Shown here: piece by piece, positions 10,669 to 39,946 of the stretch
Numbering within the stretch: position 1 is the first letter of the stretch
Layout: the number at the start of each line of letters is the position of its first letter
From: a virus
Virus record (IMG/VR): IMGVR_UViG_3300050343_000212
DNA length: 64,000 bases
Reading direction: 5' to 3' (one strand)
The notes under the pieces: generated by a model
Told to the model about the DNA's origin: nothing
The model's input: the letters and a program-made list of their open reading frames with translations, nothing else
Database searches by the model: none
Translations under genes and position numbers: made by a program

Positions 10669-11641
10669 TTAGTATGTTGCAGATATAACAAAATCATTAA
10701 CATTTTGGGGTAGATCATCTGCTGATGGTACGATACCTCCAGAAAAAGCATGAATTATAACATATCCATTATTTCTCTGATAGTTTCTATTAGGACTATT
10801 CTGCCCCTGCCCACCAGCACCCCAAGATTGGGTTGGACTAGTAGGTGATGATCCTAACAAAGGATATTCTGTAAAATTATATCCGCTGGAATGGATAATT
10901 CTACCATTTCCTGTATAGTAATTTATAAATGGACCACCTTCCGATTGCGGAATCATTAGTGGACCGTCAATGCGGCCAGATCCGCCACCACCGCCGCCCT
11001 GGCCACCGCCAGCGGCACCACCATAGTAACCACCACCACCGCCACCACCGTTTCCTCCTGGTCCACCCTTCAAATAACTTCCATAATATTGACTACCCTC
11101 TTGACTGGTTCCACCAGCTGATTGAGTGCCACCATAACCTTTACCATTGGGAGCCGGACCAAATCCAGGTTGGCCTGAGGAACCACCACCGGCACCACCA
11201 GCAGTACTGGAATTGATTACAGCACCACCGCCACCACCAGCAATTAAATGAGAAGTCCATGAAGGTTCTGGGTCAGATGGAGTATTTGGACCAGTTAAGA
11301 CTCCACTAAATCCACCACCAGAAGCATATGGACCATAACCTCTACCATTATTACTATTACTTCCTACAGCAACTTTTAATACCTGGCCAGGGGTTACTTC
11401 CATGATACCAGTGGAATAACCACCAGATCCACCATTACCATCAGGGTAAGTATTAGGATAGTTTGAAGCTTCAGCACCTGAACCCATTGCCCTAATCATA
11501 ATGTATTTTATACCAGAAGGAACAGTCCAACTAGAAGCGGATGTATTGTAATTTCTGACACTCTTGAAAAGGTAGGTTCCTTCATATTTCCTCCACCACC
11601 ACTATTTCCAAAGACCAAGTAAAAGATTTGGTATAGATCAC
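10669..11641 (-). CDS. glycine-rich fibre-tip/receptor-binding protein (5' end noisy)
   Basis: WTVPSGIKYIMIRAMG..GGSGG...GGGGG repeats; 5' ~140 nt contains indels. Confidence 0.75.
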
Positions 11642-11655
11642 TAGCTAAATACTCC

Positions 11656-12957
11656 TTATGTTAATCCTGTGAAAGATATAGCAAACTCACTTGCAGATAT
11701 GTACAATACAATTGCTACAATCCATATGCTCCTATTGTTTTAGTTGCAGTCTGCTGCATCAGCCGTAGATACGAAGTGTAACACGCAGTATGCTTTATGA
11801 TATCATAGTTGAGTTACCAGTACTGATATGATAGATTGTAACAACATATCACCAGCAGTCATACACTTTGTGGATACTGTTAAAGTATTATCCACCAGTC
11901 CTTGTAATAGTCTTACCAGTACGTCACTAGCTACAAGTGTATAATTACCTGAACTGCTTTGCCGATATTGGTGTTATTCTTCAGTCGACCGACTTGTGTC
12001 AGTGACTGTGCCAGTTACTGTGACGCCAGATGCTGAGGTTTCAATTTCTTTAGAGTTGTCGTGGTAAAGTTCTACTGCACCACCGGCGATAAACCTTGCA
12101 CCATGTTCAAATGATCCGCCTTGTGCTAACTGAATTTCACCTCCAGCTGGAACTTGGAAACTTATATTGCCATTACTACTTTGAAAAATATTATGAGAAC
12201 CATTATGATAAATCTGTAAATCATCATTAGTTCCAAATCTAATCTTAGAGTTATCTACAAGATCAATATTACCACCAGTAACATCAATACCAGTTCTGGC
12301 AGTAACAAGTCCAACTGAATCAACATTGGTAACATCTTCATAAGTCAATGTACCACCAACTGATACATTACCAGAGAATGAACCAGTTGTTGCAGTTACA
12401 TCACCAGAGAATGAACCAGTTGTTGCATTTACAGCAGTAAATGTTGATACACCAGTGACAACCAAACCACTTGGGAATATAGGCGCATCACCACCATTAG
12501 GTCCTGTAATTTGACCTGTACGAACTCTACCACCTGCACCTGATAAAAGTCCAGAAGTAGTTCCTTCTGTGGATAGACCTAAAACATCAAGTAAAAAGTC
12601 GTCTCCATCAGCAATAATGATATCAGCATTCTCGGTAGTTACAATCTCTTGATTTAGAGTGTATGCAACAGTAGATGAGTTTGGAATATCAATGGTAATT
12701 GTTTCATTGATACCAAGAGTTTTGTCAACATAAAATATGTCCTTTCCTGGTCCTTGAGCGGACATAGCAGTACCAATACCACCTGCACCACCAACTTCTG
12801 CTCCATCAGAAGTAAGAAACTTATCGGCAGTAACAGTGCCTGCAACAGACAGTGTACTACCAGGAGTTGCCGTTACAATTCCTAATCTGTTATCTGTATT
12901 ATTAGGTGTAAGTAAATTTTTAGATACAAGATTAGCTAGTATATTTACGTTAGACAT
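11656..12957 (-). CDS. tail-fibre protein with C-terminal docking domain (3' part frameshifted)
   Basis: TYEDVTNVDSVG module, GTNDDLQIYHNG repeat; degraded YTLVASD.GK...ISFTGLT* tail at 11656-11990. Confidence 0.75.
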
Positions 12958-12981
12958 ATCTATCTAATTTTTAGTTATTTA

Positions 12982-14215
12982 TTAGTACATCAACTGAACA
13001 CCATTGATATCATCAATGGTAATTTTCTCTGGATTAGTATTATTGGCATATTGATCACTTCGATCAACCGAAGTACTGGGGAATTCTCTTTTATTCGCAG
13101 GAATAACAGGACCATTATATCCATAAACAATTCTTACCATACCATGTCCTCCAGCACCCGCATGGGAACTAGAGTGGCCGCCACATCCACCACCTCCACA
13201 GAACCCACCATCGCCGGTGTATTGTGTAACAGGGCCGTCGCTTCTTTGGTTAACATAGATATTTGGGTTAGGAGTTGGCCCATCCCCCCAGTAACCGGTG
13301 GGTCTAGCGTTAGGACCAGGTATATTACTGATGTTACCTGGATATGCAATATAACCGTTTAAACCAGTATTATATGCTGTTGAACCTCCTCCACCATAAT
13401 TATTATACCAGTTACTAGCGGGCGAGCCACCTACACCCGGTGTCCCTTCACCATACACGCCTGTTCCACCCTCCGCCTCCGGCACCATCGGAGCTGTTCC
13501 GACTATTACCACCAGCACCACCGCCACCTGATCCTGGCTGTGGTGGACCAGGAAATCCTGATATGGGATATCCATCGGCTGGTCCACTCGATCCACCGGG
13601 TCCACTATATCCACCGGCACCACCGCCTCCCATTCTGGTACCAGGGGTGTCAGTACCGTTACCACCAGAACCACCACCATCAGCATTAGATGGTGTGAAC
13701 GTCCCACCGGCAATGTTACCCCAAGCGGGGCTGGTGGGATGATCATATCCTCCTTCGCCACCACCAGCTACTGCATAGTTTTGACCTGCAATTCTTATAT
13801 AAGATGGATTTCCATTATATTGAGTACTATTGAAGCTTCCATTGGGATTGCGTCCACCACCACCAACATAAACTTCAACTTGAGCTCCTGGTGAGATAGG
13901 TATATTATTCTTATAAGCTAACGCCCCACCACCAGCACTGGCTCCATCGTGTTGCATTTCTCCAGAACCACCACCACCAACACAAACTACAGAAATGTAA
14001 TCAATATTAGATGAATCTGGAACAGTCCATGAGTATGGTTGTTGTGAGTTCCAACCACTTGCGTGGAATAATGCTTCACCAATAAATCGCGTATCTCCTT
14101 GTGAACCATCTGGCATTCCAAAAACTCTACCAGATCTGGTATAAGGAATGGATCGACCATCTACAAGAGTCTGTTGACCTCTAATTCTAGTTCCTGGCGC
14201 GTTAGATCTAAGCAT
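12982..14215 (-). CDS. glycine-rich tip protein (one +1 frameshift near 13470)
   Basis: Tracked ORFs 13448..14215 and 12982..13764 join by deleting one G; WTVP..ISVVCVGGGG...GGHGMVRIVY. Confidence 0.8.
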
Positions 14216-14230
14216 TTGAAGTACCTCCTA

Positions 14231-14638
14231 TTAGACAGTGTCACCTAAAATTTGAACATTCATTTGTGTTCCTGTACCAACACCAGTCGCGCCCATAACG
14301 GGGGTGAGTAATGTTTATAGCAATTTTGTCACCATTTTCCAAAACTAATGGATAAGCATAATCAAAGAAATACGTTTCCGTTGGGTTTTAAATTTACTTG
14401 AGAAATTAAATGATTAGTTCCAGAACTTGAAGCATTAACCCCGTTTGGAGCAATATAAATCGAACAAGCAGCAGTGTTGATACCACTAGTATTGTGAGTT
14501 ACAATACTACGAATGTACGTGGTTCCAGCAACTCCAGATGAAGTTTGTGTTGTTCCCGAGGTAAAGATACCAATCGGGTTAGGGGGTGATACCAGTTAAG
14601 TTGGTAATACCAATTAGTTTAGTTCTTTTGAGTCCCAT
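14231..14638 (-). CDS. small beta-sandwich fibre adaptor (three +1 frameshifts)
   Basis: Reconstructed MGLKRTKLIGIT...TYIRSIVTHN...ETYFFDYAYPLVLENGDKI...ILGDTV; paralog of 16320..16661. Confidence 0.7.
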
Positions 14639-14659
14639 TGTGATATCTTTTTAAGTTAT

Positions 14660-14959
14660 TTAGTTGAACAAAGCTGCATCTAATTCATCAAAACTGCCAC
14701 CACCACTGGTATTGACACCTTCAAGATTAGAACCATCACCATAATAATAGATCGTACCACTGACAGCGGAGATACTTTGACCGGCTCCTATTTTAATACC
14801 GGATTGAGCAGTAACAATACCAACAGAATCAACATTGGTTACATCTTGATATGTTAATGTACCACCAATAGATATATTTGCAGCAGTCAATCCATCTGGA
14901 AAATTTACTGATCCGCTTGCAGCCCTATTGGTGATTGTATCAACTCTAATTCTGGACAT
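14660..14959 (-). CDS. short fibre/linker protein
   Basis: N-terminal MSRIRVDTITN, TYQDVTNVDSVG module, C-terminal DELDAALFN. Confidence 0.8.
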   Translation of the reverse strand: MSRIRVDTITNRAASGSVNFPDGLTAANISIGGTLTYQDVTNVDSVGIVTAQSGIKIGAGQSISAVSGTIYYYGDGSNLEGVNTSGGGSFDELDAALFN

Positions 14960-14981
14960 TATTCTAGAATCTTTTTAGTAT

Positions 14982-16316
14982 TTAGAATGGTTCATATCTA
15001 TTACTTTTGTAGAGAACATTAGTAAATCTAGATTCAGGGCTAATATTGAAATTCACACTATCACTATTACCAGCACAATAAGCTGAACCGAGGTCTATTG
15101 GTCCATAAGTTTTTACTATAGTTCCACTATCATCAACAATCTTAATCATAATCTTTGAAGTGCCACGACCATAGGTAACGGCATCAAAGTAGGTTATAGC
15201 CATAAATCCTTGTTCATTGATTCTATCAAAACTAATTCCAGAGTGGGGGTTATAATATCGTCCACCTGATGTATTACTTTGATTTGAAAGTGGAATTCCA
15301 AGGTCTTTTGGAACGGCATCAAATGAAGGGTTAATATCTAAATATCCTACCCTATATGAATAATCATAGGTACTGGTCCCATACTTATAAAGTTTGAACA
15401 GTTTTGTGTCTGTTACCCCAATACAAGGATTTCCAGTTGCGTCGTCAATGTGGGAGCTATAAGTTGCACCACCATAACTAAGTCCTTGGGTTAGATCGAT
15501 ACTTGTAGGGTTCGTGGTACCTTCTGTAAATAATTGATGATCCCCTCCCCCAGTGTGGATGATTGCTTTGGTGCTGGACATCATAAAACCACCACTCCTT
15601 GAGTAGTTACTATCAACAAACTTAACCATTGTTGCATTAGCCGTTGGGCTAGCGGCCAAATTTGAAACAGAATACAAATACTGTGGGTAAGGATAACTAC
15701 CACCAGATCCAGGGGAACCACTACCACCAGCAAACAGGTAACGATTACTCAATGAACTCGCCCATTCACGGCCGTGATTAGCAAATCCTACTGTAGGTTG
15801 GACTGAAGCCATATCGGAATATGACACATTGCCTACTGGCAGAGTCCTCAGGACTCCAGTTACAAAATCTAAAATATGGGCAGTCGTTGATCGTATTTTA
15901 ATGAGTTCATTCCCACCAAAGGGTGCAAAAGTCATGCTGTCTGCAAACGACCGCGTAACGACATTAGCTCCATAGATATCACCACCACTTAGATTAGATA
16001 TATCTATAACTTTTACACTGCCGGATGGAAGCTTACATATAATAAGATATGGGTACATAATAGTCAACGACAGTTGACATGTGGTACCACTATATCCAGT
16101 AGCAATTCTTCCAAGTATGGTCCCGTCTGTCTTTAAAATATTAACCCAATAATCGCCTGATTGATCTCTACTTAAAATATAGAGATTGGGTTCAATGATT
16201 CCTGAATATGGTTTATCAGCATCCTCAATATTAATATTAGCTCCTAATTGTCTTGATCTATAAAGGTCAAGAAGATATCCAGAATTTAAAGAGTTGGATG
16301 ATCGTAATGGACTCAT
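14982..16316 (-). CDS. beta-rich putative receptor-binding tip protein
   Basis: 444 aa, S/G/Y/T-rich, no recognisable enzyme motif, follows an adaptor gene. Confidence 0.7.
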   Translation of the reverse strand: MSPLRSSNSLNSGYLLDLYRSRQLGANINIEDADKPYSGIIEPNLYILSRDQSGDYWVNILKTDGTILGRIATGYSGTTCQLSLTIMYPYLIICKLPSGSVKVIDISNLSGGDIYGANVVTRSFADSMTFAPFGGNELIKIRSTTAHILDFVTGVLRTLPVGNVSYSDMASVQPTVGFANHGREWASSLSNRYLFAGGSGSPGSGGSYPYPQYLYSVSNLAASPTANATMVKFVDSNYSRSGGFMMSSTKAIIHTGGGDHQLFTEGTTNPTSIDLTQGLSYGGATYSSHIDDATGNPCIGVTDTKLFKLYKYGTSTYDYSYRVGYLDINPSFDAVPKDLGIPLSNQSNTSGGRYYNPHSGISFDRINEQGFMAITYFDAVTYGRGTSKIMIKIVDDSGTIVKTYGPIDLGSAYCAGNSDSVNFNISPESRFTNVLYKSNRYEPF

Positions 16317-16319
16317 TTG

Positions 16320-16661
16320 TCAAGCCTCCTTGTCGCCCATTATGATGAAATTGATTGCACTATTTCCAACTCCTACAAATAATTTATCACCCGTCTCTGT
16401 TAATACAATGGGATAAGATGGTTCAAGCAATACAGTTTCTTTTGCACTGAGTGTCACATCAAAAATTCTATTGCTTTCGTCTGCACTAGATCCATTGGGT
16501 ACATAGTACACTTGAGCGGTTGGGAACGTGTTTATCCCTACACCGTGAGCAATAATAGATTTTATGTAAACCTTTTTATTGTTCGCAACAGTTATGACAC
16601 TGGTTGTTGATCCAGCTGCTACTTGCACTACTGTTGATAATCTACCTCGTTCTAGAGACAT
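16320..16661 (-). CDS. small beta-sandwich fibre adaptor
   Basis: VYIKSIIAH...ETVLLEPSYPIVLTETGDKLFV...IIMGDKEA. Confidence 0.75.
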   Translation of the reverse strand: MSLERGRLSTVVQVAAGSTTSVITVANNKKVYIKSIIAHGVGINTFPTAQVYYVPNGSSADESNRIFDVTLSAKETVLLEPSYPIVLTETGDKLFVGVGNSAINFIIMGDKEA

Positions 16662-16690
16662 GCCTTTCTTCCTTTTAATTATTTAGTAGA

Positions 16691-17710
16691 TTAGTTGAAC
16701 AACCATGTATCTCTGACATCAGAGGATCCACCCCCGCCGCCACCGATATTGATCACTCCACCCATACTAGGGTGAGCAGTACATTGATAGTACAGTGTAT
16801 TTGGTGCATCAAATTGAACGTTCCATTCTAAAGTTCCATTCGATACATCATTATTGGTAATTCCATCATTATATTGTGTACCAGTGGCACCGTTGGCCTC
16901 GGATTGGATTCTAAATGCATGAGCACCCATATTATTAACAAATTGATACTTCATACCTCTTTGGAGGTAGACAGTTGGATCATCCTCTGCTCCAATCAGT
17001 CCAGGTCCAGTAAAGGTGTAGTGATTTGATCCATTAGCACCTAAAATCCATTTGCCAGATACAACATCTGATGTATCACCATCAAACGAAGTAGCAGTAA
17101 TCATACCAACTGCATTAATACCACCAGCAAGAACTTTAATTCCAGATCTAGCAGTAATAAGTCCAACAGAGTCAACATTGGTAACATCTTCATATGTTAA
17201 TGTACCCCCAACTGATACACTACCAGAGAATGAACCAGTTGTTGCATTTACAGCAGCAAATGTCGATACACCAGTGACCTCAAAGTCATTCTGAATCTTT
17301 ACCTTACTGGTAGTTGTTACACCAGTGTTGTTATCGTAGTTTGTCCAGGTACCAGCAGCACCTGCACTACCTCCACTTCCACCATAAAATGTACCTGTAA
17401 CTACAAGATCACCATTAATAATCTGTGAAGAAGCAGCACCTACAATGGCATCAGCCACACTGAAGGTATCAAATATCTTAAATGATACTTCATCATTTAA
17501 ATTAGATGGTGCAGTTAAAACAACTTTTGATGCATCAGCGGCTTGGAAATCAGTTTGAGGTGTTAGTTTAACACCATTCCTGAAAACATCAATCTGGTTA
17601 ATTCGATAACCACCAACAACAGTGAACTCGGTCTGGTTTGCCGTTGCAGTTACACTAATCGTCTTTGAGGCTACATTGCCAGTTAGATTTATAGGTCTGC
17701 CGATTGCCAT
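16691..17710 (-). CDS. tail-fibre protein
   Basis: ATANQTEF...IDVFRNGVKL N-domain; TYEDVTNVDSVG; C-terminal FDAPNTLYYQCTAHPSMGG cupredoxin-like module; ends DVRDTWLFN. Confidence 0.8.
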   Translation of the reverse strand: MAIGRPINLTGNVASKTISVTATANQTEFTVVGGYRINQIDVFRNGVKLTPQTDFQAADASKVVLTAPSNLNDEVSFKIFDTFSVADAIVGAASSQIINGDLVVTGTFYGGSGGSAGAAGTWTNYDNNTGVTTTSKVKIQNDFEVTGVSTFAAVNATTGSFSGSVSVGGTLTYEDVTNVDSVGLITARSGIKVLAGGINAVGMITATSFDGDTSDVVSGKWILGANGSNHYTFTGPGLIGAEDDPTVYLQRGMKYQFVNNMGAHAFRIQSEANGATGTQYNDGITNNDVSNGTLEWNVQFDAPNTLYYQCTAHPSMGGVINIGGGGGGSSDVRDTWLFN

Positions 17711-17734
17711 GGCGATATCTTTTTAGTTATTTAG
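17709..17734 (-). repeat. 26-nt late-promoter leader identical to 19868..19893
   Basis: CTAAATAACTAAAAAGATATCGCCAT in both places. Confidence 0.9.
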
Positions 17735-18328: not shown

Positions 18329-18349
18329 AATACCTCACTAATAATATAA

Positions 18350-18566
18350 TTATACCATAACCGGTTCGTCTGGTAACGTAACTTTGTCAACATTCTCCGA
18401 TGTGACACCATTAGTAATATTACGAAGAGCTTCTCTATAAGTTCTGATGAGTTCTAGGTAAATTGGATCAAATCTATCCTTATTATCGAATAGAAATACA
18501 TAATCCGTAGATGCAAGACGAGTATTTTCTTGCTGTTCTGAGATCTGATAGGGATGAATAAGCCAT
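18350..18566 (-). CDS. tail-fibre assembly chaperone (one +1 frameshift)
   Basis: Reconstructed MAYSSLSDLRTAR-NTRLASTDY...YREALRNIT...LPDEP; paralog of 19890..20141. Confidence 0.8.
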
Positions 18567-18572
18567 TTATTT

Positions 18573-19864: not shown

Positions 19865-19889
19865 TTGATGGCGATATCTTTTTAGTTAT

Positions 19890-20141: not shown

Positions 20142-20153
20142 TGGTTTCTCCTA

Positions 20154-31304: not shown

Positions 31305-34097
31305 TTATAAGTTTCCAATAATGGTCGCTTCTCTGATAAAGGTATTGGATGTTCCTCCACCTCTGACGAACCACACTCTCCACTGAGTAGAGTTCTGTTT
31401 CTGTATCGCTCCTGCTCGCATGTCTGGATCGGTTGAACCACCAGCAGCTGTGAGATCTGATGTAACGTCAATAGTAAGACCAGTATAGTCAGCATCCATT
31501 GTGACGAGATAATGTTTAGCACCGGTATCACCTGGTTGACCATTACCACTCTCAGACTGAGCAGATACACTAACAATATTACCAGTACTTGTAAGAGAAG
31601 TAGTTCTCTTAGGTCTAACTCTGTTATCAAAGAAGTGTACGAACTGGGAAGTTTCCGTTCTCATGGTAATTTTAGCCAGTCCAGTTGAACCACCAAGACG
31701 AGTTGATATAACCTCTACACTACCATCATTGTATCCTGATCCACCTCCACCACCCTGGCTGGATGATTGTCCACCATCACCACCTGATGCACCATTACCA
31801 CCTTGTCCACCACCAGCTATACCAGCACCAGCTGTTGAAGTGACGGTATATCCAGGTTTAAATCCCCTAATGATAGAAGAACTTGAATTAATAGTTGTCC
31901 CATCAATGTTGACATACTTAATCTCACTTGAACTATTATTACTACAAGCCGAGATAGCCTGGTTTATCCAATAAGAACCCTTGGTACAAGTAATAGTTTT
32001 ACCACCCTGGTTTTGAATTGCTAAGGTATCACCACTCTGCAAACTAACGCTAGATGGTGTTATTGAACCATATACACCATTCAGTGACAGTGATGAATAC
32101 TGACCACCGGAATTACCATTATTACCACCATCACCACCAGAACCATTTGCACCACCACCGGCACCACCTGATACTGAAGATGTAGCGTTTCCACCTTCAC
32201 CAACAACAGCGATAAGAGTTGAACCACGATACAAAAATACAGCCGAATTATTTGAGATACCAATCACGGTATACTCAATATCTTTTTCAGCTGTAAATTT
32301 GATAGTTGCAGTTCCACCTTCTCCACCATTAGAACCAGATCCCTTAGAACCAAACATGTTCATGATGATAGGGTTGTTCCTCTCTACTGAGTGGAATTGA
32401 ATGATATTATACTGTGATCCAAAAGTGTTCTGATCAAGTGTAAATTCAGGATTACTATCAAAGTCTACATCTTTTGTTGCATAGTCATTAGCGAAAGTAT
32501 AAGCTTCAAAAGTAATCAGTGGTCTTGGTGAGACCACTGTCATAGTTACAGTGTTAGTATTCTGAGGTGAATTGAACGACTGTGGGTGTGATACCTCACA
32601 ATATAGATTCTGAACAGTATTATTACCAGCTTCGGGTAGTGACCTATTATGATCAATAGCCCATCTCTCACCAGACATAGTAGAATAGTAGAGATTCATT
32701 CCATTATCTCTACACTTCTTAGTGAACTCATTTATTGATGCTCTGACATTAATCTGAACAGTTCTACCACCAATACCATAGACGATTGGTGAAAGGAAGT
32801 TAAATCCCCAACTCCTCACCAGTGTTGCCTGTCTTCCTGGTCCAAGACTATTAGTCATGTCAAAGGCAACTCTGAATGAGTTTGCACTGAGTCTCTGTGG
32901 GTAACCTGGTGAAACTGCAATAGAATTGTCACCTGCAATTAGACCACTTGCCCTAGTTGAAGTGTTGTTAACATATGCCTCAAGATCAACATCGCCTGTT
33001 GATCCTAACTGGGTGAAAGTAATATCATATCCAATACTTCCGATTGGGTGACTTTCAGTTCCACTAGGAACATTGATAAATCTATTTACTGAGATAAGAA
33101 TATTAGAACCGGTTGGATCTGATACACTTACACTCCCACTATTGTCTGTAATTGATATTGGTCCACCAAATGAATCATCAATTGCCAGAGAGACCGAAGT
33201 ACCAGCTGGAGCATTATTCAATCCAGTCAGAGTGAACCAATCACTTGTCTGGTTTGTATCACCAACGTCCAAATTTATAGCTTGTATAGGATATGCAAGA
33301 CCATCACTAGTGTATGATGAAGGCACCTTCAGAAGACTATCGGAAAATTGTGGTGGTTGTAAGAGATAGAATGGTCTTTGTGGGTAACTTGATCTAAAGG
33401 AGGACCAATCACTATCAATTGTAGATTGACTCTCAAGAGTCAACCCAAGGACACTAATACAAACTGCTGGACCACCAGTTGTTACATTTTCATCAACAGC
33501 AACTTTAACACTATCTGTGTTAGTTCCACTATATGTAAATCCAGCTACACCACCATCATTCCTGATTGAACCATCAAAATACCATTGATACTCGATACCA
33601 GTTGTTAATCCATTCTCCAGTTGAGCTTCAACTGTATATGTTACATCATCACCAGAAGCAACAGTTTGAGTTACTGGTTGAGTCAGGATCTGAATGTTTT
33701 TGATCAGTTCAATTGTACCAGTATCTGACTGAAGTGGTTCATTATTTGCCTGTGATTCACCAGTTGCTGGAATATAATCCGTCTTCAGATAGACTCTTGA
33801 GTTGTCGTTACTTAGTGGAATATTATCAAGAGTAAGTATCGAAGAATTACCAACACTTACTATTGATACAGATGGTGATGTCATTGAACTATTCAGTTCA
33901 CTATCATCCAGATACCATTTGAAATCAAATGTTCCTCCCACATTATCATTTGGATATGTGGCAGTTGTAATACCTGAAAATGTGACAACACCTGTTATAT
34001 GTTGTTTTGTGTCTGTTACTTGTTCTAGATACCCTAAACTAGGTCCATTCAACTTTAGTGTTGTAGGAACGGACCTATTAAATTTGAACCCTATCAT
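31305..34097 (-). CDS. multidomain virion protein (Ig-like, vWA-like and Gly-rich domains)
   Basis: TQPVTQTVASGDDVTYTVEA..YQWY Ig; SLAIDDS segment; GGAGGG C-domain. Confidence 0.75.
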   Translation of the reverse strand: MIGFKFNRSVPTTLKLNGPSLGYLEQVTDTKQHITGVVTFSGITTATYPNDNVGGTFDFKWYLDDSELNSSMTSPSVSIVSVGNSSILTLDNIPLSNDNSRVYLKTDYIPATGESQANNEPLQSDTGTIELIKNIQILTQPVTQTVASGDDVTYTVEAQLENGLTTGIEYQWYFDGSIRNDGGVAGFTYSGTNTDSVKVAVDENVTTGGPAVCISVLGLTLESQSTIDSDWSSFRSSYPQRPFYLLQPPQFSDSLLKVPSSYTSDGLAYPIQAINLDVGDTNQTSDWFTLTGLNNAPAGTSVSLAIDDSFGGPISITDNSGSVSVSDPTGSNILISVNRFINVPSGTESHPIGSIGYDITFTQLGSTGDVDLEAYVNNTSTRASGLIAGDNSIAVSPGYPQRLSANSFRVAFDMTNSLGPGRQATLVRSWGFNFLSPIVYGIGGRTVQINVRASINEFTKKCRDNGMNLYYSTMSGERWAIDHNRSLPEAGNNTVQNLYCEVSHPQSFNSPQNTNTVTMTVVSPRPLITFEAYTFANDYATKDVDFDSNPEFTLDQNTFGSQYNIIQFHSVERNNPIIMNMFGSKGSGSNGGEGGTATIKFTAEKDIEYTVIGISNNSAVFLYRGSTLIAVVGEGGNATSSVSGGAGGGANGSGGDGGNNGNSGGQYSSLSLNGVYGSITPSSVSLQSGDTLAIQNQGGKTITCTKGSYWINQAISACSNNSSSEIKYVNIDGTTINSSSSIIRGFKPGYTVTSTAGAGIAGGGQGGNGASGGDGGQSSSQGGGGGSGYNDGSVEVISTRLGGSTGLAKITMRTETSQFVHFFDNRVRPKRTTSLTSTGNIVSVSAQSESGNGQPGDTGAKHYLVTMDADYTGLTIDVTSDLTAAGGSTDPDMRAGAIQKQNSTQWRVWFVRGGGTSNTFIREATIIGNL

Positions 34098-37000
34098 GAG
34101 AAGTTTTGACCTCCGACTACACCATACAGTGAAGTTCCACCATCAAATGTCATGAATGAATAGATATCAACTCTACCAGCTACAGTTGTTACTATAGGTG
34201 TGATTCCACCTGGCCAGTACACTGGTATCACAGAACTACTCTCTGTCCTAAAGTTATCTATATCAACTGTATAGGGTGTTGTTGCGTCCTGTGTAATTTT
34301 GAGGGTAAATGCTGTTGTGGAATTCAAAGCCGCCCCTTTCAGTGTAAATGATGTGACATTCTCACTAGTTGTCAGAAGGAACGACTGACCTATTGATAGA
34401 TCGAGTTCTACATCATTAGCAGATGATGTGACAGTTTGTGCAATTTCATGATAGGAATTGAATCTAGCTCTACCATCAACATCTAGTGCAGATCTAGCAA
34501 CTGTAGTTCCAATACCAACACCAGTAGATGTTACCGAGAGGATTGTAGAACCGGCTCCAGATTGAATGGTCGTAGATGTAACAACACCAGCGGTAATTGT
34601 ACCGGATGTGTTATCTAAGTCAAATGGTCCAGTTGCTGTCAGTGCTCCACCAACAATAACTCCACTATCAAACCTTGATATACCATCAAATCTAGATTCA
34701 TTACCAACATATAGTGAAGTTTGTGCTGTACCGGCGGAGTGAACTTGACCATAAATGTCTCCAGTACTAACACCTAATCCGAGTTTGATGTTTACATCGT
34801 CCTTGATATAGACGAAGGCGTTTCCTCCACCCTTTTGCCAAATACTATCCTGGTTGGTAATACCAGAACCATCACCATAAATTGTGAATCCAGTACCAAT
34901 ACGAACATCACCTTCGATATTCAGTTTGAGACCATTAGCTGTGGTTCCAAGACCAACACCACCATCGCCATCAATAGTGAATAGTGATGAACCAGAACCA
35001 ACCTGGAATGTCTGATTGGGTAGAATATCTTCAGTTCCAACACCAATCTTATCAAACAACATTTCACTGCCATTTGGATTAATACTGATAGCACCGAATG
35101 GATACCAACCACTCTCAATAGAGTAATTCCATCCGATTGTTCCACCCTTGCTTGGATTTGCGTTATAAACAACATCACCAGGATTACCAGCCAATACTGG
35201 AGTTCCGAGTCCTACAGTGTACTTTCTAGATACAACTGTGTCACCCTGGAGGAACATAGAGTTAACCTCAATACCCTCATCTGAAGTGGATGTAATCTTC
35301 TCGGTGAAGACCACAGGACCATTAAATTCTGATAGGATATTATTCTGAGTACCACCCTCAACCTTAAGACCTCTGGATATAGTAGCGTCAAGTGGGTTAA
35401 TGACATCAACACCAGACTCAGCACCAATGGTAAATATGTCTTCACCAGTAATAGTAGGAACTGGAGTATCAAATACCTCTTCCTTACCAGTGTTAGAGGA
35501 AATTCTCTTGTTGCCAATATAGAAGTCACCCTGATCATTCATACCAGTGTAGACACTGACACCACCATTAGATCTGAATGACTGAGACAACAACTGTTCA
35601 GTCAGACCAGGTTGTGCCGCCTGTCTCTGTGGAAGTGACGTTGAGTAGTTACCAGGACCATATCCAAGATACTCAAACGTATGTCCAGAAGCTCTGATAA
35701 TTGATGTTCTTCTAAGTTCAACAGGTTGAATATGAATCTTTCTAATGACAGATCCTTGAACATGAGTTGAAGTTCTGGTACCAAGAATACCTCTAAAAAC
35801 CTTAATTGGATTGGAGTTAACGGTGGTTTTAACTCTCATAATCTCATTGTTAATTCTTACATAATCACCAATATTGAAGTTAAAGTTGTTCAGATTTTCA
35901 ATCTCAATCTCATCAATTGATGTATTAATGATAGGAGAAGACAATACTGTGGAGATACCAGCGTAAGAGTTGGAAGTTCTACCACCAAAATTTTCATCAT
36001 ACAGAGTAAATGTACCACCTTGAGGTGAAGTACCCACGTAGTAACCAGCAAGTGTACCGGAGGCTACTTGAGAACTCGTACTAATCCCAATATCAATATT
36101 AAATTTATTAAGGTTCGTTACCTGTGTTATCGTAAAGTTTCTATTAAAGAAATTATTGGTAGATCCACCAATTCTAATTACATTATCAGAAACCAATCCA
36201 TGATTCTGTATGGTAGTAACACTAGCAATACCAACGATTGGGTCGTAGTCGATACTATCAATGTCTAATCTAGGACCAGTGACCCTAGAACAAGAGTTGA
36301 CCGTCACATCTCCACCAATAGGAGTAGTTGAATATCCAACAATAAGATTGGCTGATGTAAGAGATACCTTATTAGCTGTAGAGATTCCACTAATTGAGTA
36401 AAATCCGTTGTAGGTCGAGAAAGCAGAATTGATACCACAGATTCTAAGTGTATCACCAACATTATTTTGAATAGCAGATACTGTAACCTGACCACCAGAG
36501 AATCCAGTAGTGGTAGCTGTACCTGTGACATTCAATACGTCACCTACATTATAGTTAGAACCACCACTGATGATCTTGACATCTGCAATTGAACCATTGT
36601 TATCAACTGTAATTCTTGATGTAGCTTCTTTACCAGGTAATGTATTTGAACTCAGAATTGCGTTATAGATATTTTCGCCTGCACCTGTACCGTTACCATA
36701 ACCGGTACCAGGTATGGATATTGATACTCTAGCAATACTATTATACCCATGTTCACGATCTAAGGTAATTTCGTGATCAGTCTCTGAAGTTGATACAATA
36801 CTGGTGACATTTTGAGCCAGGTGATAAGATTTTTCTACTCTCTCAACACCGACTTTTGTAATACTATTTTTGGGGTCATTGACTTCGACACTACCCAAAA
36901 TATTGGAGAGTGCATATGTTTGTGCTGAAGGAGCGTCACTTACTGGATTATCTCTATCAAGTTGAGGATAAAGATTGACAATAGGTGAGGAGAAGGAGAA

Positions 37001-39946
37001 CTCTTCAGAATCATTAAAAGGAGCAACGGATGGGGTGTTTCCAGAATCAATAATGGTCAGATAGTAAATACCATCTTGTTCTCCGGTCTTATACTCTTTG
37101 ATCTGTTCAACATCATAAACGTAGAATGTCTTATCACTTCGTTTAGTTTTGAATGTCGGAAGATCGGTTGTTCTTGCAGATGTATTATTTGTGAATGTTC
37201 CGGGATCAATTGATTGAGAAACAAGGAATGTGTGAGAACTGGAAATACCAATAACAACCTTAGAACCATTATATGCTGAACCTGCAACACCAGTTGGATT
37301 TTCTGTACTGGTCACATTATTAATGACAAGTTTAGAACCAGTTACAAGGTTGTGTGGTTGTTCTGAGGTATAGTAGGCTGTTCCATTATTCCAGTTAGCG
37401 TCGCGAAGGAAACTTAAGTTTCTCATCTGAGACTGGTTGGACATAGTGACCGAACCAGGATTATATTTAAGTGCAATTTCACTATTATCAACACCAGTTA
37501 CGTCGTTAGACATCTGGATAACATAACCGTCTCTAGGTGGTCTAGCAGATTGAATACCTACACCTGATGGAATGACATATCTGTACCTATAGATCCTATC
37601 GGCAAGTGCTCTATTATCTGGGAGTCTGTTAATGAATGTTCTTGAAGTGGCTTCACCAAGAACTGATGTTCCTAGTGTTACAATCTTACTGTATAGTTGA
37701 TTGTCAGTAGAAGAACTAGATACATTTACATACCACTGATCCTCGTTGGTATCATACTGAATTGGGTGTCCAATATCACCAGATACTTTGTCATTGACTC
37801 TAGATTCGACGATCAGATTACCACCAAGATTGTTGATATCAACAGATGTTCCAGTGGAGGCATCATTAGAACTTACAGCAAGTTTAACTTGATCATCGTT
37901 GAGTCCTGTGGTAATAGCATAATAAACTCTATTATTATTAATACCATCTGGGAGTCTAGCATTATCACTAGAAATTCTGATTGTCTCACCATCCATAAAC
38001 CTATGGTCTGATGTGAGATTCAGAGTGTTGTTACTAATACTATTAGATGAACCAACTCTAGCAACATCGAATACTTTTCTAGAAGATTCCTTCTTAGTTG
38101 TGGTGTCATCAGGCATCACAATACGAGCCTGATAGTTGATTGATTCACCACCTTCAGTAATCAGGAGATTGAGTTTATCATCAACCTTGGAACCAATTCT
38201 ATATCCCTGGATGACACTCTTTGGTGGTGCAGACTGGTTTTTCTCGTTGTGGAGATACAATCTACCAGTAGAACCAACACCAACAGTCTTGGTTACATCA
38301 ATAGAACCATACTCAAGGTTGATTGTGGTCGTTGGTAGTTGTTTTGGTGGAATAATATTGGTGATGTACCCAACGTCATCTCTTCCAAAAGCAATATCAC
38401 GATACCCTTTCGATGCAAGAGCAATTGCACCAAAGTTAGAGTTGGAGTTGGTAACAGAGAAATCACCACCACTATCAGTTACAAAGTGTTGAGCATATCC
38501 AATAGCAAAAATGGATACTAACTGAACAACAGAGTTATTTGACGCCTTAATATGGTAGTTGTAATATTCTGGTCTATATTTCGCATTAGGATCACTATGA
38601 ATATTATCTACTGTACTTGCAAACTTAAATGAACCAGTTGATTTGTCAAACTTACAGAATGCATTATCATCCTTCTGAAGTGACACACCCGTAAACTGAG
38701 CAACAACCATGGATTTAAATCCACTAGCCTTTGCACCATCAGCGTGCATACCACATATACCATAAACAGATCTCAATGAGATATTGAAAATGTATGGAGA
38801 TGCAGAAGAAACGGTGTCAATATCCAGATTGACTAATGCACCAGCGACAACAGGTGCAACAGAGTTAGGAATTACAGAGTTAAGATACTTGAATGATGTA
38901 GTACCTTCTGTAGTTGATGTCAGAACCTCATTTACAACAAATGAACCATTATAATCAACGTCACTTACACCATTAATTTGGAAGGCTGTATCTACATCGA
39001 GACCGAAAAGTGGTTCGGAGAGAGTGACAGTGATGATCTCATTCTTACCAAGAATCGTTCCATCACCAGCTTGAATTGCACTAATTTCTGTGCCACCACC
39101 AGTTGGTCCAACAATACGATATTCATCAATTTTAGGTTGAATATCAAGACCAGAAGATGGATAATCTGGTTGAATCTCTCTACCAGAAGATGTACCATAG
39201 GCTAAACCGACCTTTTCGTAGTACATATCAAGGTCAGTTCTTTCTGACTTGAAATTACTAATAAAAGTATCGTCAATTTCTACATTATTAACGCCATCAG
39301 CGTACTCAAAACAGGTTAGTTTGTGGTGTGAGAAGTTTGGAACAATATCTCCACTGGTGTAGTTCCTATAGACAGTCCCGTTTGGATTACCGTCAAAGAT
39401 AGTAAACTGGAAGAAGTAGCAACCACCAGTAATCTTAAAAATAGCCGTTGTTTCAATATTGTCGTTTTCTGGATCTGGAACATAAAGTGGTCTGATTGTC
39501 GTTTTTCTCAGATCCTGTCCAACGAGAGAAACACCACGGGGGACTATGACACCACCAGAGACCGAATTTAACTTATACAGGTCATTCTTAGATGATGTAA
39601 GGTCAAAATTTGATGCAGTATTGAAAGAAGTGAAATCAGAAGACTGAGTTCCGTCTCGAAGCCTATAATCAGACGCATTTAGTGGAATCCAACCCGGTCT
39701 ATTGTCAACAATATGTTCTCCTGGTGAGAGAAGAATTGTTGTTTTACCAAATCTGTCATTATCAAGACCCTGTTGATATGAAAACCTAGCCGCCTCAACG
39801 AGTGCCCTTTGAATAGTAATAAAGGGGCGACCCATTGAATTGCCCTGATTTGTTATACTATCAGTAGCATCTAGGTCATTGGGGTTAACATAAATGATGT
39901 TTCCGCGAACGTTCTTAAGGAAGTTATCAAGTCTCGATAATGGCAT
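34094..39946 (-). CDS. giant virion structural/proximal fibre protein (1950 aa)
   Basis: MPLSRLDNFLKN...YVNPNDLDATD typical of cyanophage giant fibre proteins; repeated H(G/N)L..G..I.I modules; VGIGT repeats. Confidence 0.85.
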   Translation of the reverse strand: MPLSRLDNFLKNVRGNIIYVNPNDLDATDSITNQGNSMGRPFITIQRALVEAARFSYQQGLDNDRFGKTTILLSPGEHIVDNRPGWIPLNASDYRLRDGTQSSDFTSFNTASNFDLTSSKNDLYKLNSVSGGVIVPRGVSLVGQDLRKTTIRPLYVPDPENDNIETTAIFKITGGCYFFQFTIFDGNPNGTVYRNYTSGDIVPNFSHHKLTCFEYADGVNNVEIDDTFISNFKSERTDLDMYYEKVGLAYGTSSGREIQPDYPSSGLDIQPKIDEYRIVGPTGGGTEISAIQAGDGTILGKNEIITVTLSEPLFGLDVDTAFQINGVSDVDYNGSFVVNEVLTSTTEGTTSFKYLNSVIPNSVAPVVAGALVNLDIDTVSSASPYIFNISLRSVYGICGMHADGAKASGFKSMVVAQFTGVSLQKDDNAFCKFDKSTGSFKFASTVDNIHSDPNAKYRPEYYNYHIKASNNSVVQLVSIFAIGYAQHFVTDSGGDFSVTNSNSNFGAIALASKGYRDIAFGRDDVGYITNIIPPKQLPTTTINLEYGSIDVTKTVGVGSTGRLYLHNEKNQSAPPKSVIQGYRIGSKVDDKLNLLITEGGESINYQARIVMPDDTTTKKESSRKVFDVARVGSSNSISNNTLNLTSDHRFMDGETIRISSDNARLPDGINNNRVYYAITTGLNDDQVKLAVSSNDASTGTSVDINNLGGNLIVESRVNDKVSGDIGHPIQYDTNEDQWYVNVSSSSTDNQLYSKIVTLGTSVLGEATSRTFINRLPDNRALADRIYRYRYVIPSGVGIQSARPPRDGYVIQMSNDVTGVDNSEIALKYNPGSVTMSNQSQMRNLSFLRDANWNNGTAYYTSEQPHNLVTGSKLVINNVTSTENPTGVAGSAYNGSKVVIGISSSHTFLVSQSIDPGTFTNNTSARTTDLPTFKTKRSDKTFYVYDVEQIKEYKTGEQDGIYYLTIIDSGNTPSVAPFNDSEEFSFSSPIVNLYPQLDRDNPVSDAPSAQTYALSNILGSVEVNDPKNSITKVGVERVEKSYHLAQNVTSIVSTSETDHEITLDREHGYNSIARVSISIPGTGYGNGTGAGENIYNAILSSNTLPGKEATSRITVDNNGSIADVKIISGGSNYNVGDVLNVTGTATTTGFSGGQVTVSAIQNNVGDTLRICGINSAFSTYNGFYSISGISTANKVSLTSANLIVGYSTTPIGGDVTVNSCSRVTGPRLDIDSIDYDPIVGIASVTTIQNHGLVSDNVIRIGGSTNNFFNRNFTITQVTNLNKFNIDIGISTSSQVASGTLAGYYVGTSPQGGTFTLYDENFGGRTSNSYAGISTVLSSPIINTSIDEIEIENLNNFNFNIGDYVRINNEIMRVKTTVNSNPIKVFRGILGTRTSTHVQGSVIRKIHIQPVELRRTSIIRASGHTFEYLGYGPGNYSTSLPQRQAAQPGLTEQLLSQSFRSNGGVSVYTGMNDQGDFYIGNKRISSNTGKEEVFDTPVPTITGEDIFTIGAESGVDVINPLDATISRGLKVEGGTQNNILSEFNGPVVFTEKITSTSDEGIEVNSMFLQGDTVVSRKYTVGLGTPVLAGNPGDVVYNANPSKGGTIGWNYSIESGWYPFGAISINPNGSEMLFDKIGVGTEDILPNQTFQVGSGSSLFTIDGDGGVGLGTTANGLKLNIEGDVRIGTGFTIYGDGSGITNQDSIWQKGGGNAFVYIKDDVNIKLGLGVSTGDIYGQVHSAGTAQTSLYVGNESRFDGISRFDSGVIVGGALTATGPFDLDNTSGTITAGVVTSTTIQSGAGSTILSVTSTGVGIGTTVARSALDVDGRARFNSYHEIAQTVTSSANDVELDLSIGQSFLLTTSENVTSFTLKGAALNSTTAFTLKITQDATTPYTVDIDNFRTESSSVIPVYWPGGITPIVTTVAGRVDIYSFMTFDGGTSLYGVVGGQNFS

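What the first reader, a model, noticed from the sequence alone, without database searches (positions are those of the whole stretch)
10669..39946. Plug-and-socket gene grammar suggesting a branched, multi-tip adsorption apparatus
Seen: the fibre island reuses a few terminal motifs in fixed gene order. (a) Fibres ending in a short hydrophobic tail (30403 ...GLAIALGS; 16691 ...DVRDTWLFN; 14660 ...DELDAALFN) are each followed by a small paralogous adaptor (29843, 16320, 14231). (b) The GPITI...VTV...FTIV tail of 28962 is followed by two proteins starting MxxLRV(D/N), and a third (14660 MSRIRVD) lies further on. (c) The ANRYYF...GWMIK tail of 21533 is followed by two MTKLS.IRGF proteins. (d) The YTLVASD.GK tail of 11656 is followed by a Gly-rich tip. 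(e) 28962 and 16691 share an N-domain, and 22123 and 12957 have similar MS...LA.L starts. Inference: C-terminal sockets bind N-terminal plugs of the next gene products, so the virion could display about 6 different tips as branches or alternatives. This would be a non-covalent, combinatorial host-range system different from T4 gp34-38.
Basis: partly seen in the sequence, partly recalled or inferred. Interest (0 to 1): 0.72.

Follow-up and report, generated by a model that had tools for sequence, protein, structure and literature searches.

The report
Snap-together tail fibres of a cyanophage
This marine T4-like cyanophage encodes its host-recognition fibres as many separate pieces whose touching ends match in fixed pairs, some joined through a small, unnamed jelly-roll protein, so it probably assembles several different receptor-binding tips from exchangeable parts, as some other phages are known to do.

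Summary
The same upstream-tail/downstream-head pairs recur without cross-pairing in 5 cultured cyanophages and about 25 virome contigs.

I found at least seven junction types.
- Four use a small jelly-roll protein (adaptor A, B1, B2 or C, one superfamily) between a hydrophobic fibre tail and a tip with a subtype-specific head.
- The "socket I / MSxLRVD" junction is covalently fused in gene 11974 of this window and in 108 of 120 long homologues, which is Rosetta-stone evidence.
- One "socket" is homologous to the XD1 domain of the CBA120 TSP4 tailspike.
- An adaptor homologue in phage S-SCSM1 is annotated as a virion protein.

Adaptors carry their own late-promoter-like TAAATA. Tips behind them never do.

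The frameshifts that break five genes here are sequence errors, because a 91-98% identical contig has all five intact.

Non-covalent, gene-order assembly is likely but physically untested. It is not "different from T4 gp34-38": it follows the logic of T4 gp34-37, T2/S16 gp38 and the CBA120/G7C branched complexes. Branching versus alternative tips is unresolved.

This scan already found the same cassettes in other cyanophage genomes. I found no published description.

The parts
34094..39946 (-). 1950-aa conserved large fibre. Its C-terminus ...LYGVVGGQNFS overlaps the start of the next gene.
   Evidence: phrog_529 tail fibre, E 0. It is 48-52% identical to the 'fiber' proteins of P-TIM68, S-SM2, Bellamy and SynMITS9220M01.
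31305..34097 (-). 930-aa variable protein with a conserved head (..L.LNGPSL..) that follows the large fibre in all relatives.
   Evidence: phrog_24848; synteny and N-termini.
30403..31266 (-). 287-aa stem (head MAVNKNFVVKNG) ending in the hydrophobic tail ..SIGLAIALGS. A TATAAATA lies 43 nt upstream.
   Evidence: In the junction table, an IALG tail is followed by adaptor A in 6 of 6 cases.
29843..30376 (-). Adaptor A, 177 aa: an N-terminal beta domain plus a C-terminal jelly roll. Its stop codon overlaps the start of the next gene.
   Evidence: phrog_26609, E 8e-64. AF2 pLDDT 95.4. Jelly-roll analogues. The C-terminal half matches the A2 family at E 1e-30. Present in 7 cultured cyanophages in the same position.
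28962..29843 (-). 293-aa stem with the head ..GYLGRNPGD, which is cognate to adaptor A. Its N-domain is shared with 16691, and it ends in the socket-I tail ..GVTVTVGAGNSFTIV.
27167..28948 (-). Tip 1, 593 aa: MAQLRVDN head, Big_5 Ig-like domain and Gly-rich domain.
   Evidence: PF13205 at 36 bits; PF21722 at 23.6 bits, just under the cut-off. 41% identical to 25427.
25427..27151 (-). Tip 2, 574 aa: MSDLRVNR head, Big_5 domain and Gly-rich domain. Paralogue of tip 1.
   Evidence: PF21722 at 35.6 bits; PF13205 at 28.6 bits.
22123..22608 (-). 161-aa stem (head MSRARELASLAS) ending ..NRAGGNVPINI.
   Evidence: A PINI tail is followed by a MANRFPLIAN head in 3 of 3 cases. One of these is L030, where the upstream protein has a different head.
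21533..22093 (-). 186-aa stem: MANRFPLIAN head plus a C-terminal XD1-like beta-sandwich that ends ..GWMIK.
   Evidence: Residues 100-185 match CBA120 TSP4 residues 96-174 (PDB 7RFV, 7RFO, 7REJ) at E 2e-4. The XD1 domain is defined in PMC8825819.
20154..21536 (-). Tip 3, 460 aa, head MTKLSEIRGF. Its start overlaps the stop of 21533.
   Evidence: No family hit.
19890..20141 (-). Tail-fibre assembly chaperone (Tfa type), 83 aa.
   Evidence: PF16778 at 33 bits against a cut-off of 26.6; phrog_4912.
18573..19873 (-). Tip 4, head MTKLSDIRGF. It is broken here by at least 2 frameshifts and is an intact 428 aa in the near-identical contig.
18350..18682 (-). Second Tfa-type chaperone. The true gene is about 71 aa, and its start is frameshifted in this assembly.
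   Evidence: phrog_4912. Intact in L028 and L029.
16691..17710 (-). 339-aa stem: N-domain shared with 28962, the GGTLTYEDVTNVDSVG module, a cupredoxin-like part (judged by eye), and the tail ..DVRDTWLFN.
16320..16661 (-). Adaptor B1, 113 aa, a single jelly roll.
   Evidence: phrog_20100. AF2 pLDDT 93.7. Fold analogues. 139 homologues found.
14982..16316 (-). Tip 5, 444 aa, head MSPLRSS, the head type that follows adaptor B1. Its body is not Gly-rich.
   Evidence: Adaptor B1 is followed by an M(A/S)PxKS head in 16 of 16 cases.
14660..14959 (-). 99-aa stem: MSRIRVD head, GGTLTYQDVTNVDSVG module, tail ..FDELDAALFN.
   Evidence: Bellamy gp36 has the same head and tail.
14231..14638 (-). Adaptor B2. 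It is broken here by three +1 insertions in C5, A4 and C5 runs and is an intact 134 aa in L028.
12982..14215 (-). Tip 6, Gly-rich. Frameshifted here and an intact 408 aa in L028.
   Evidence: PF21722 at 47 bits.
11656..12957 (-). Fused stem of 423-429 aa when intact. In order: a gp52-like module with an internal socket I (..ADGDDFLLDVLGL), a G/S linker, an MSxLRVD-type head (RVRTGQITGPNGGDAP), a shaft, and a C-terminal YTLV domain. The last ~330 nt are garbled by insertions in this assembly.
10669..11650 (-). Tip 7, a Gly-rich protein. It is an intact 323 aa in L028, with head MSIPNLL.
   Evidence: PF12810 ALK_LTK_GRD at 50.4 bits.
12969..22632 (-). Six copies of the late-promoter-like motif TAAATA(A/C)(C/T)(A/T)AAAA at 12969, 14972, 16673, 17721, 19880 and 22620. 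A seventh lies at 42153. Each is 12-25 nt before a stem or adaptor start.
   Evidence: 7 matches against 0.03 expected. TAAATA lies upstream of 36 of 36 adaptors and 0 of 35 tips behind adaptors.

Best explanation
The island encodes multi-segment tail fibres that are put together after translation. Each protein carries a C-terminal module that is recognised by the N-terminal head of its partner, which is in most cases the product of the next gene, so gene order largely mirrors order along the fibre.

There are three kinds of joint.
1. Direct joint. A beta-rich 'socket I' end (..G.G.T...VL.L) is followed by an MSxLRVD..G.GAP.FP.G head. In many homologues the two are simply one chain joined by a Gly/Ser linker.
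2. Connector joint. A short hydrophobic tail (..IALGG, ..SMVFG, ..DTWLY or ..AALFN) is followed by a free-standing jelly-roll protein of about 100 residues (adaptor A, C, B1 or B2). Behind that comes a tip whose first 8-10 residues are specific for the adaptor subtype. Adaptor and tip are made from one late transcript and are probably translationally coupled. They would dock as a pair on the stem.
3. Domain joint. A C-terminal XD1-like or YTLV domain is followed by a tip with a matching head (MTKLSxIRGF, MMQQxLVG or MSIPNLL).

The distal proteins are four glycine-rich proteins of the Pam3 gp24 / S16 gp38 adhesin type and three other tips, two of which have Tfa chaperones.

Shown here: the motifs, their exclusive pairing across genomes, the fusion, the folds, the promoter layout, and a connector homologue annotated as a virion protein. 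Inferred: the physical contacts, trimeric state, stoichiometry and receptor binding.
For: - Exclusive pairing of tail and head classes in de-duplicated junctions from the window, 5 isolates and about 25 virome loci.
- Pairing survives when the rest of the proteins differs. The DTWL(F/Y) tail sits on a 339-aa stem here and on 100-190-aa MSxLxVD stems elsewhere. The PINI tail sits on two different stems. The YTLV domain with an MMQQ head occurs on P2-type and P3-type stems with different tips.
- A near-identical phage (L028) swaps tail, adaptor and tip together.
- Rosetta stone: residues 15-128 of g11974 equal the whole of Bellamy gp52 (E 3e-22). Residues 144-233 equal a stand-alone MSKIQVN protein from its residue 3 (E 7e-23). 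108 of 120 long homologues have the same fusion.
- The C-domain of g21533 is homologous to CBA120 TSP4 XD1, a T4 gp9/gp10-type domain.
- All adaptors fall in one jelly-roll superfamily.
- In S-SCSM1, gp26 (long tail fibre, ends ..FILALGGN) is followed by gp27 (112 aa, A2 family at E 1.7e-20, product 'virion protein' in a record whose paper reports virion mass spectrometry) and then gp28 (tail fibre).
- TAAATA lies before 36 of 36 adaptors and 0 of 35 following tips. Gaps between adaptor and tip are -1 to 14 nt.
- True Tfa chaperones in the same island sit downstream of their tips, unlike the adaptors.
Against: - No contact, complex or stoichiometry was tested.
- Adjacent genes are inherited together, so co-occurrence alone could be linkage. 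The loci are related, so the p-values overstate independence.
- MSxLRVD heads outnumber socket-I tails, and about 30 of 50 follow an unrelated gene. Their docking site is therefore not always the previous gene product.
- XD1 is described as a spacer, not a binding surface, in TSP4.
- No XD2/XD3-type domain was detected.
- Adaptor fold matches in the PDB are generic (Z at most 9.6).
- I inferred the virion status of S-SCSM1 gp27 from the GenBank product name and the paper's methods. I did not see it in a peptide table.
- Apparent adaptor-tip fusions in databases look like read-through or frameshift artefacts.
Confidence: 0.6

Rival explanations
1. The small jelly-roll proteins are assembly chaperones that are not kept in the virion. 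The conserved hydrophobic tails or tip heads are chaperone recognition tags, and tips join stems directly or not at all.
For: - 'Fibre then small gene' is the classical fibre-chaperone order (T4 37-38, Mu/P2 Tfa, Pam3 gp24-gp25).
- The Gly-rich tips here have no Tfa gene of their own.
- Adaptor and tip are co-transcribed, as expected for a client and its chaperone.
- Adaptors are never truly fused to partners.
Against: - The adaptors are all-beta jelly rolls and have no Tfa or Pam3 gp25-like helical trimerisation domain.
- They have no Pfam or PHROG chaperone hit.
- Genuine Tfa genes in this island lie after their tips.
- The S-SCSM1 homologue gp27 is annotated as a virion protein.
- Two BFVD structural neighbours are also named virion structural proteins.
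- The upstream stem tail co-varies with adaptor subtype although it lies in another transcript.
Confidence: 0.2
2. There is no docking between neighbouring gene products. The shared heads and tails reflect tandem duplication and conserved gene-boundary sequences (promoter, ribosome-binding site, first codons) that serve as recombination points for cassette shuffling. Each fibre binds the baseplate on its own.
For: - The boundaries do carry a conserved DNA motif, TAAATAACTAAAA.
- Cassette swaps between close relatives break near domain borders.
- Many MSxLRVD proteins follow unrelated genes, which fits a common baseplate site.
Against: - Heads are conserved at the amino-acid similarity level and not as identical DNA. 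For example MSRIRVD, MSQLFVD, MAQLRVD and MSKLQVD all occur.
- C-terminal tails lie upstream of the promoter motif and still track the adaptor subtype.
- The socket-I/head fusion places the two motifs next to each other in one chain in over 100 homologues.
Confidence: 0.15
3. Several cassettes in this phage are decaying pseudogenes, so the real number of tips is 3 or 4.
For: Five genes are interrupted in the window. The interruptions are confined to the fibre island, and the rest of the window is intact.
Against: - A 91-98% identical contig has all five genes intact.
- P0274 is an intact copy, 100% identical over the first 135 aa.
- The isolated shifts are +1 insertions in C5, A4-5 or G runs. 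The stretch 11600-12000 carries about 35 scattered 1-2 nt insertions, which is an error signature and not evolution.
Confidence: 0.05

Closest known systems
T4 long tail fibre gp34-gp35-gp36-gp37, with gp38 as a separate Gly-rich adhesin in T2/T6/S16
   Same: Fibre segments are encoded by consecutive genes in order of assembly and joined non-covalently end to end. Small connector proteins sit between long trimeric segments. A separately encoded glycine-rich adhesin caps the tip. The host here is a T4-like myovirus with late-promoter-like elements before the cassettes.
   Different: No sequence relation to gp34-38 was detected. The connectors are ~100-residue jelly rolls of an unnamed family. 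There are many short cassettes (7 tips) in place of one long fibre. Several junction types re-assort.
Branched tailspike complexes of Ackermannviridae (CBA120 TSP1-4) and G7C (gp63.1/gp66), built on T4 gp10-like XD domains (PMC8825819)
   Same: Several different receptor-binding proteins sit on one virion and are held by dedicated N-terminal or anchor modules. g21533 carries a domain homologous to TSP4 XD1. Jelly-roll modules act as trimer-trimer docking units in those systems.
   Different: In CBA120 the docking jelly rolls (XD2, XD3) are domains of the anchor protein. Here the jelly rolls are free-standing proteins, and no XD2/XD3 homology was found. The tips are Gly-rich adhesins and other domains, not beta-helix depolymerases.
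Cyanophage Pam3 tail fibre gp24 with chaperone gp25 (PDB 7YPX/7YFW; PMC9608196)
   Same: Glycine-rich (plus TNF-like) distal receptor-binding domain in a cyanophage fibre. The Pfam families hit here (PF21722, PF12810) describe that domain type.
   Different: Pam3 gp24 docks on the baseplate by its own helical N-domain and uses a downstream Tfa-like chaperone that is absent from virions. Here the tips sit behind a stem and an upstream jelly-roll protein. There was no direct sequence hit to the PDB entries.
Mu/P2/lambda-type tail fibre assembly (Tfa) chaperones
   Same: 19890 and 18350 are of this kind and follow their tips.
   Different: They account for only two of the small genes. The adaptors are a different fold and sit upstream of the tips.

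Membership tests
T4 gp34-gp38 long tail fibre proteins | Sequence homology to gp34, gp35, gp36, gp37 or gp38 | tested here: not met
   No Pfam or PHROG hit to these families for any island protein. No PDB sequence hit for the tips.
T4 gp34-gp38 long tail fibre proteins | Consecutive genes whose products join end to end in gene order | tested here: inconclusive
   Gene order and junction pairs are conserved, and one junction is fused in homologues. Physical order is not testable here.
gp10-like XD-domain branched RBP complexes (CBA120 TSP4/TSP2, G7C gp66) | XD1 beta-sandwich domain | tested here: met
   g21533 residues 100-185 against TSP4 residues 96-174, E 2e-4, 86 columns aligned. Domain limits from PMC8825819.
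gp10-like XD-domain branched RBP complexes (CBA120 TSP4/TSP2, G7C gp66) | XD2/XD3 jelly-roll domains that bind partner trimers | tested here: inconclusive
   No sequence hit. The adaptor models did not list 7REJ or 5IV5 among the top fold matches, which does not exclude a relation.
Glycine-rich adhesin tips (Pfam PF21722 Gly_rich_2 / PF12810 ALK_LTK_GRD; Pam3 gp24, S16 gp38 type) | Match to the glycine-rich domain model above the curated cut-off | tested here: met
   13448 scores 47 bits and 25427 scores 35.6 bits against a cut-off of 24.3. 10669 scores 50.4 bits against 24.5. 27167 scores 23.6 bits, just below the cut-off.
Glycine-rich adhesin tips (Pfam PF21722 Gly_rich_2 / PF12810 ALK_LTK_GRD; Pam3 gp24, S16 gp38 type) | Receptor binding by distal loops; trimer | not testable with these tools
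   Taken from PMC9608196 for Pam3 only.
Tfa-type tail fibre assembly chaperone (PF16778) | Match above the cut-off and position downstream of the fibre tip | tested here: met
   19890 scores 33 bits against 26.6. 18350 and its intact L028 copy hit phrog_4912. Both follow MTKLS tips.
Jelly-roll fibre connector superfamily (phrog_20100, phrog_26609, phrog_1276; unnamed) | ~100-residue single jelly roll encoded between a fibre with a hydrophobic C-terminal tail and a tip gene | tested here: met
   AF2 models. Family links. Context in more than 30 loci.

The most novel reading that the evidence does not exclude
Free-standing jelly-roll proteins form a widespread, so far undescribed class of structural fibre joints. 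Each subtype reads one hydrophobic fibre tail and one tip head. A promoter-adaptor-tip cassette can therefore be moved between phages as a self-contained host-range unit. A single cyanophage virion, or a burst of virions, would then carry a mixture of up to seven different adhesins.
Probability: 0.35. Interest if true: 0.75.

Novelty: new variant of a known kind. Interest (0 to 1): 0.6.

Why it matters
T4-like cyanophages kill a large share of marine Synechococcus and Prochlorococcus, yet what sets their host range is largely unknown. Most of their fibre-island genes are annotated as hypothetical.

A readable set of rules for which stem takes which connector and which tip would help in three ways.
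- It would allow annotation of these islands in thousands of virome contigs.
- It would explain how close relatives differ by whole cassettes.
- It would give defined parts for testing host recognition in cultured phages such as Bellamy or S-SCSM1.

The principle of modular, non-covalent receptor-binding assemblies is already established in coliphages and Klebsiella phages. The gain here is a new connector family and a new group of phages, not a new concept.

Tried and rejected
I could not fetch the 40 contigs that carry the identical adaptor B1, and used an IMG/VR near-identical contig in their place.
- No whole genome is held for this window.
- A megablast of the island against cultured phages found only a 100-nt match.
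- A single-protein scan of IMG/VR with adaptor B1 found nothing. The alignment query worked.
- A search for natural adaptor fusions gave 3 proteins that look like read-through or frameshift artefacts. I rejected them as Rosetta evidence.
- Direct hhalign of adaptor A against adaptor B gave nothing. The link exists only through the A2 family.
- I suspected by eye that the YTLV domain is XD1-like. Neither a PDB profile search nor hhalign supported this, so I dropped it.
- PDB sequence searches with three Gly-rich tips returned only low-complexity matches. The Pam3/S16 relation therefore rests on Pfam models and the literature.
- PDB fold searches for the adaptors gave only generic jelly rolls.
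- The ESM Atlas gave only unnamed viral clusters.
- Pfam has no family for the A2 proteins.
- The perfect T4 late promoter TATAAATA occurs once in the island. The relaxed TAAATA motif is the informative one.
- A programmed frameshift or phase variation was considered for the broken genes and rejected. The runs are only 4-5 nt, there are several shifts per gene, and the relative is intact.
- The literature searches found no description of these connectors in cyanophages.

Full report
**What the window is.** The region 10.6-40 kb is the fibre island of a T4-like cyanomyovirus (Kyanoviridae). All genes are on the minus strand. The 1950-aa protein is the conserved cyanophage 'fiber' (phrog_529; 48-52% identical to P-TIM68, S-SM2, Bellamy and SynMITS9220M01). 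DNA-level similarity to cultured phages is almost nil. No whole genome is held.

**Sequence quality.** Five genes of the island are interrupted:
- adaptor B2 (14231-14638);
- the Gly-rich tip (12982-14215);
- the 3' part of the 11974 gene;
- the second MTKLS tip (18573-19873);
- the start of the second Tfa gene.

The rest of the 64-kb window is densely and cleanly coding. An IMG/VR contig that is 91-98% identical (IMGVR_UViG_3300028197_001237; L028 and L029) has every one of these genes intact: 134, 408, 429, 428 and 71 aa. P0274 is an intact 423-aa copy of the 11974 gene, 100% identical over the first 135 residues. The isolated shifts are single extra bases in C5, A4-5 or G runs. The stretch 11600-12000 carries about 35 scattered 1-2 nt insertions relative to L028. 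I read these as sequencing or assembly errors in a poorly covered hypervariable stretch.

**Check of the observation.** Two corrections apply.
- 'YTLVASD.GK' is not a tail. It is the beginning of a C-terminal domain of about 85 residues.
- The three 'adaptors' are not equally related. 16320 and 14231 are one family (phrog_20100; hhalign 99.95%). The C-terminal half of 29843 belongs to a very widespread ~110-aa family that I call A2 (E 1e-30). The B adaptors, and a further type found in relatives (adaptor C), match A2 at about 90% hhalign probability, E 2e-6.

AF2 models are confident (pLDDT 93.7 and 95.4). They show a single jelly roll for adaptor B, and a beta domain plus jelly roll for adaptor A.

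**Is the grammar conserved?** Yes. I compared the window with five cultured relatives, 22 IMG/VR loci found with an adaptor-B alignment, and L028-L030. After removing duplicate junctions, each tail class pairs with one head class only:

| Upstream end | Next gene | Count | Gene after that | Count |
|---|---|---|---|---|
| ..IALG(G/S/A) tail | adaptor A | 6/6 | ..GYIGR.P.D head | 7/7 |
| ..A(L/M)S(M/I)VFG tail | adaptor C | 4/4 | MGYLGRRIG Gly-rich tip | 6/6 |
| ..(D/S)xWL(Y/F) tail | adaptor B1 | 12/12 | M(A/S)PxKS tip | 16/16 |
| ..AALFN-type tail | adaptor B2 | 5/11 | — | — |
| ..GGNVPINI tail | MANRFPLIAN head | 3/3 | — | — |
| YTLV domain ending ..ISG(S/T)QL | MMQQxLVG head | 2/2 | — | — |
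| socket I | MSxLRVD head | 11/13 | — | — |

For the AALFN class my regular expression was loose, which explains the lower count.

The pairs persist while the rest of both proteins changes:
- The DTWL(F/Y) tail sits on a 339-aa stem with a different N-domain here, and on 100-190-aa MSxLxVD stems elsewhere.
- The PINI tail sits on an MSRAR-type stem here and on a GYIGR-type stem in L030.
- The YTLV/MMQQ pair occurs on two stem types with a Gly-rich or a non-Gly tip.
- L028 replaces the tail, adaptor B1 and tip 14982 of this phage, all together, by a YTLV domain plus an MMQQ tip. It keeps the first ~150 residues of the stem.

Fisher tests on raw adjacencies give p = 4e-27 and 4e-30. The loci are related, so these numbers are descriptive only.

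**Fusion evidence.** Gene 11974 of this window contains, in one chain:
- the whole of a protein that is separate in Bellamy (gp52, 153 aa, ending ..DLVLDVLQLR; residues 15-128, E 3e-22);
- a linker of about 15 residues;
- a segment equal to a stand-alone MSKIQVN-type protein from its third residue (residues 144-233, E 7e-23).

Among 120 longer homologues of the N-terminal module, 108 show the same arrangement..ADGDDF.PD.LGL, a G/S/T linker, then R(I/V)RA(D/G)N.TNKAG.GAP.FP.G. So for this junction the 'socket' and 'plug' are neighbouring parts of one fibre, sometimes covalent and sometimes split.

**Links to known docking modules.** The C-terminal domain of 21533 (the 'ANRYYF...GWMIK tail') is homologous to the XD1 domain of CBA120 TSP4 (PDB 7RFV, 7RFO, 7REJ; E 2e-4 over 86 columns). 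XD1 is a gp9/gp10-type beta-sandwich. It lies in the anchor of the branched CBA120 tailspike complex, where jelly-roll XD2/XD3 domains bind partner trimers (PMC8825819). That paper regards XD1 as a spacer. Here it is terminal, so its distal face is free, but binding is not shown. I could not link the YTLV domain to XD1.

**Are the adaptors structural?** Four points argue that they are.
- They have no chaperone-type hits and no helical trimerisation domain such as Pam3 gp25 or Tfa proteins have.
- Real Tfa genes in this island follow their tips.
- In the BFVD library the fold recurs in many ~110-aa phage proteins, three of which are named virion proteins.
- In S-SCSM1, gp26 ('long tail fiber protein', ends ..FILALGGN) is followed by gp27 and then by gp28 ('tail fiber protein'). 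gp27 is 112 aa, hits the A2 family at E 1.7e-20, and carries the product name 'virion protein'.

The S-SCSM1 paper reports 45 virion proteins by mass spectrometry, 13 of them of unknown function. BLAST alone had left ORF27 'hypothetical'. I infer that the product name reflects detection by mass spectrometry, but I did not see the peptide table.

**Expression layout.** A motif TAAATA(A/C)(C/T)(A/T)AAAA occurs 7 times in the window against 0.03 expected. All copies are on the coding strand, 12-25 nt before starts. Across all loci, TAAATA lies within 50 nt upstream of 36 of 36 adaptors and 43 of 51 MSxLRVD stems, and upstream of 0 of 35 tips that follow adaptors. Adaptor-tip gaps are -1 to 14 nt. 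The units are therefore [stem] and [adaptor + tip]. The stem's tail lies just before the promoter of the cassette it matches.

MSxLRVD heads are more numerous than socket-I tails. This window has three free heads and one free socket; Bellamy has five heads and three sockets. About 30 of 50 such genes follow the Gly-rich tip of the previous cassette or an unrelated gene. Cassettes are arrayed in tandem, so adjacency is not always contact. Where these heads dock, and whether paralogous tips (27167/25427; the two MTKLS tips) share one socket as alternatives or as branches, cannot be told from sequence.

**Comparison with known systems.** The logic is that of the following:
- T4 gp34-gp35-gp36-gp37, where gene order equals assembly order and small connectors join the segments;
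- T2/S16 gp38, a separate Gly-rich adhesin;
- T4 gp10-gp11/gp12;
- the branched complexes of CBA120 and G7C.

The statement that the system differs from T4 gp34-38 therefore does not hold in principle. It is not a sequence member of those families. What appears new is the free-standing jelly-roll connector superfamily with subtype-specific tails and heads, and the number of cassettes.

Earlier notes of this scan describe the same stalk/jelly-roll/Gly-tip cassettes in other cyanophage genomes. My tests agree with them. I found no paper that describes the connectors.

**Verdict.**
- Observation: confirmed.
- Interpretation: partly supported.
- Novelty: new variant of a known kind.
- Confidence in non-covalent, cassette-wise fibre assembly: about 0.6.
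- Chaperone rival: 0.2.
- Pure linkage or recombination rival: 0.15.

Noticed in passing
window 11600-12000, and single sites at 14582, 14386, 14300, 13725, 13469, 19831, 19654 and 18525: There is a local burst of 1-2 nt insertions, plus isolated +1 homopolymer errors, confined to the hypervariable fibre island. The rest of the window is clean. This suggests low coverage or mixed strains during assembly.
   Followed up: yes
window 14990-17260 against L028:1596-3798: A 94-98% identical phage carries a different C-terminal half of the 16691 stem and a different tip (381 aa, head MMQQMLVG). These replace the LFN tail, adaptor B1 and tip 14982, so a whole cassette has been swapped with a breakpoint inside the stem.
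   Followed up: partly
window 23983-24603, 22633-23250, 17723-18328 (and 23247-24014): Three 2OG-Fe(II) oxygenase genes sit between the Pro/Gly-rich fibre genes, together with a protein that PHROGs calls 'ferrochelatase'. The same genes sit in the fibre islands of Bellamy and S-SM2. Modification of fibre proteins is conceivable but untested.
   Followed up: no
window 24653-25396: This 247-aa protein starts MAHFAELDDNNIV (phrog_7759, unknown function). Homologues sit after Gly-rich tips in Bellamy (gp34), L021 and L029. The role is unknown, possibly another accessory of the fibre cassettes.
   Followed up: no
window 16691-17710, residues ~220-322: The stretch ..HAFRIQ...YYQCTAHPSMGG.. looks by eye like a cupredoxin (type-1 copper) site. 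Similar stretches occur in L028 (HYQCSAHGYMGN) and L030 (YYQCQNHAAMAG). There was no Pfam hit at E 0.01; phrog_677 is annotated 'baseplate wedge tail fiber connector'.
   Followed up: no
window proteins 30403, 16691, 14660 and 11974: The module GGTLTY(E/Q)DVTNVDSVG(I/L)(V/I)TA recurs directly after the MSxLRVD-type head. It also occurs in PHROGs annotated as baseplate wedge subunits.
   Followed up: partly
window 34094-34097 and relatives: The large fibre ends ..LYGVVGGQNF. in all relatives. The overlapping next gene always has ..L.L(N/D)GP.(L/I).. near its start.
   Followed up: partly
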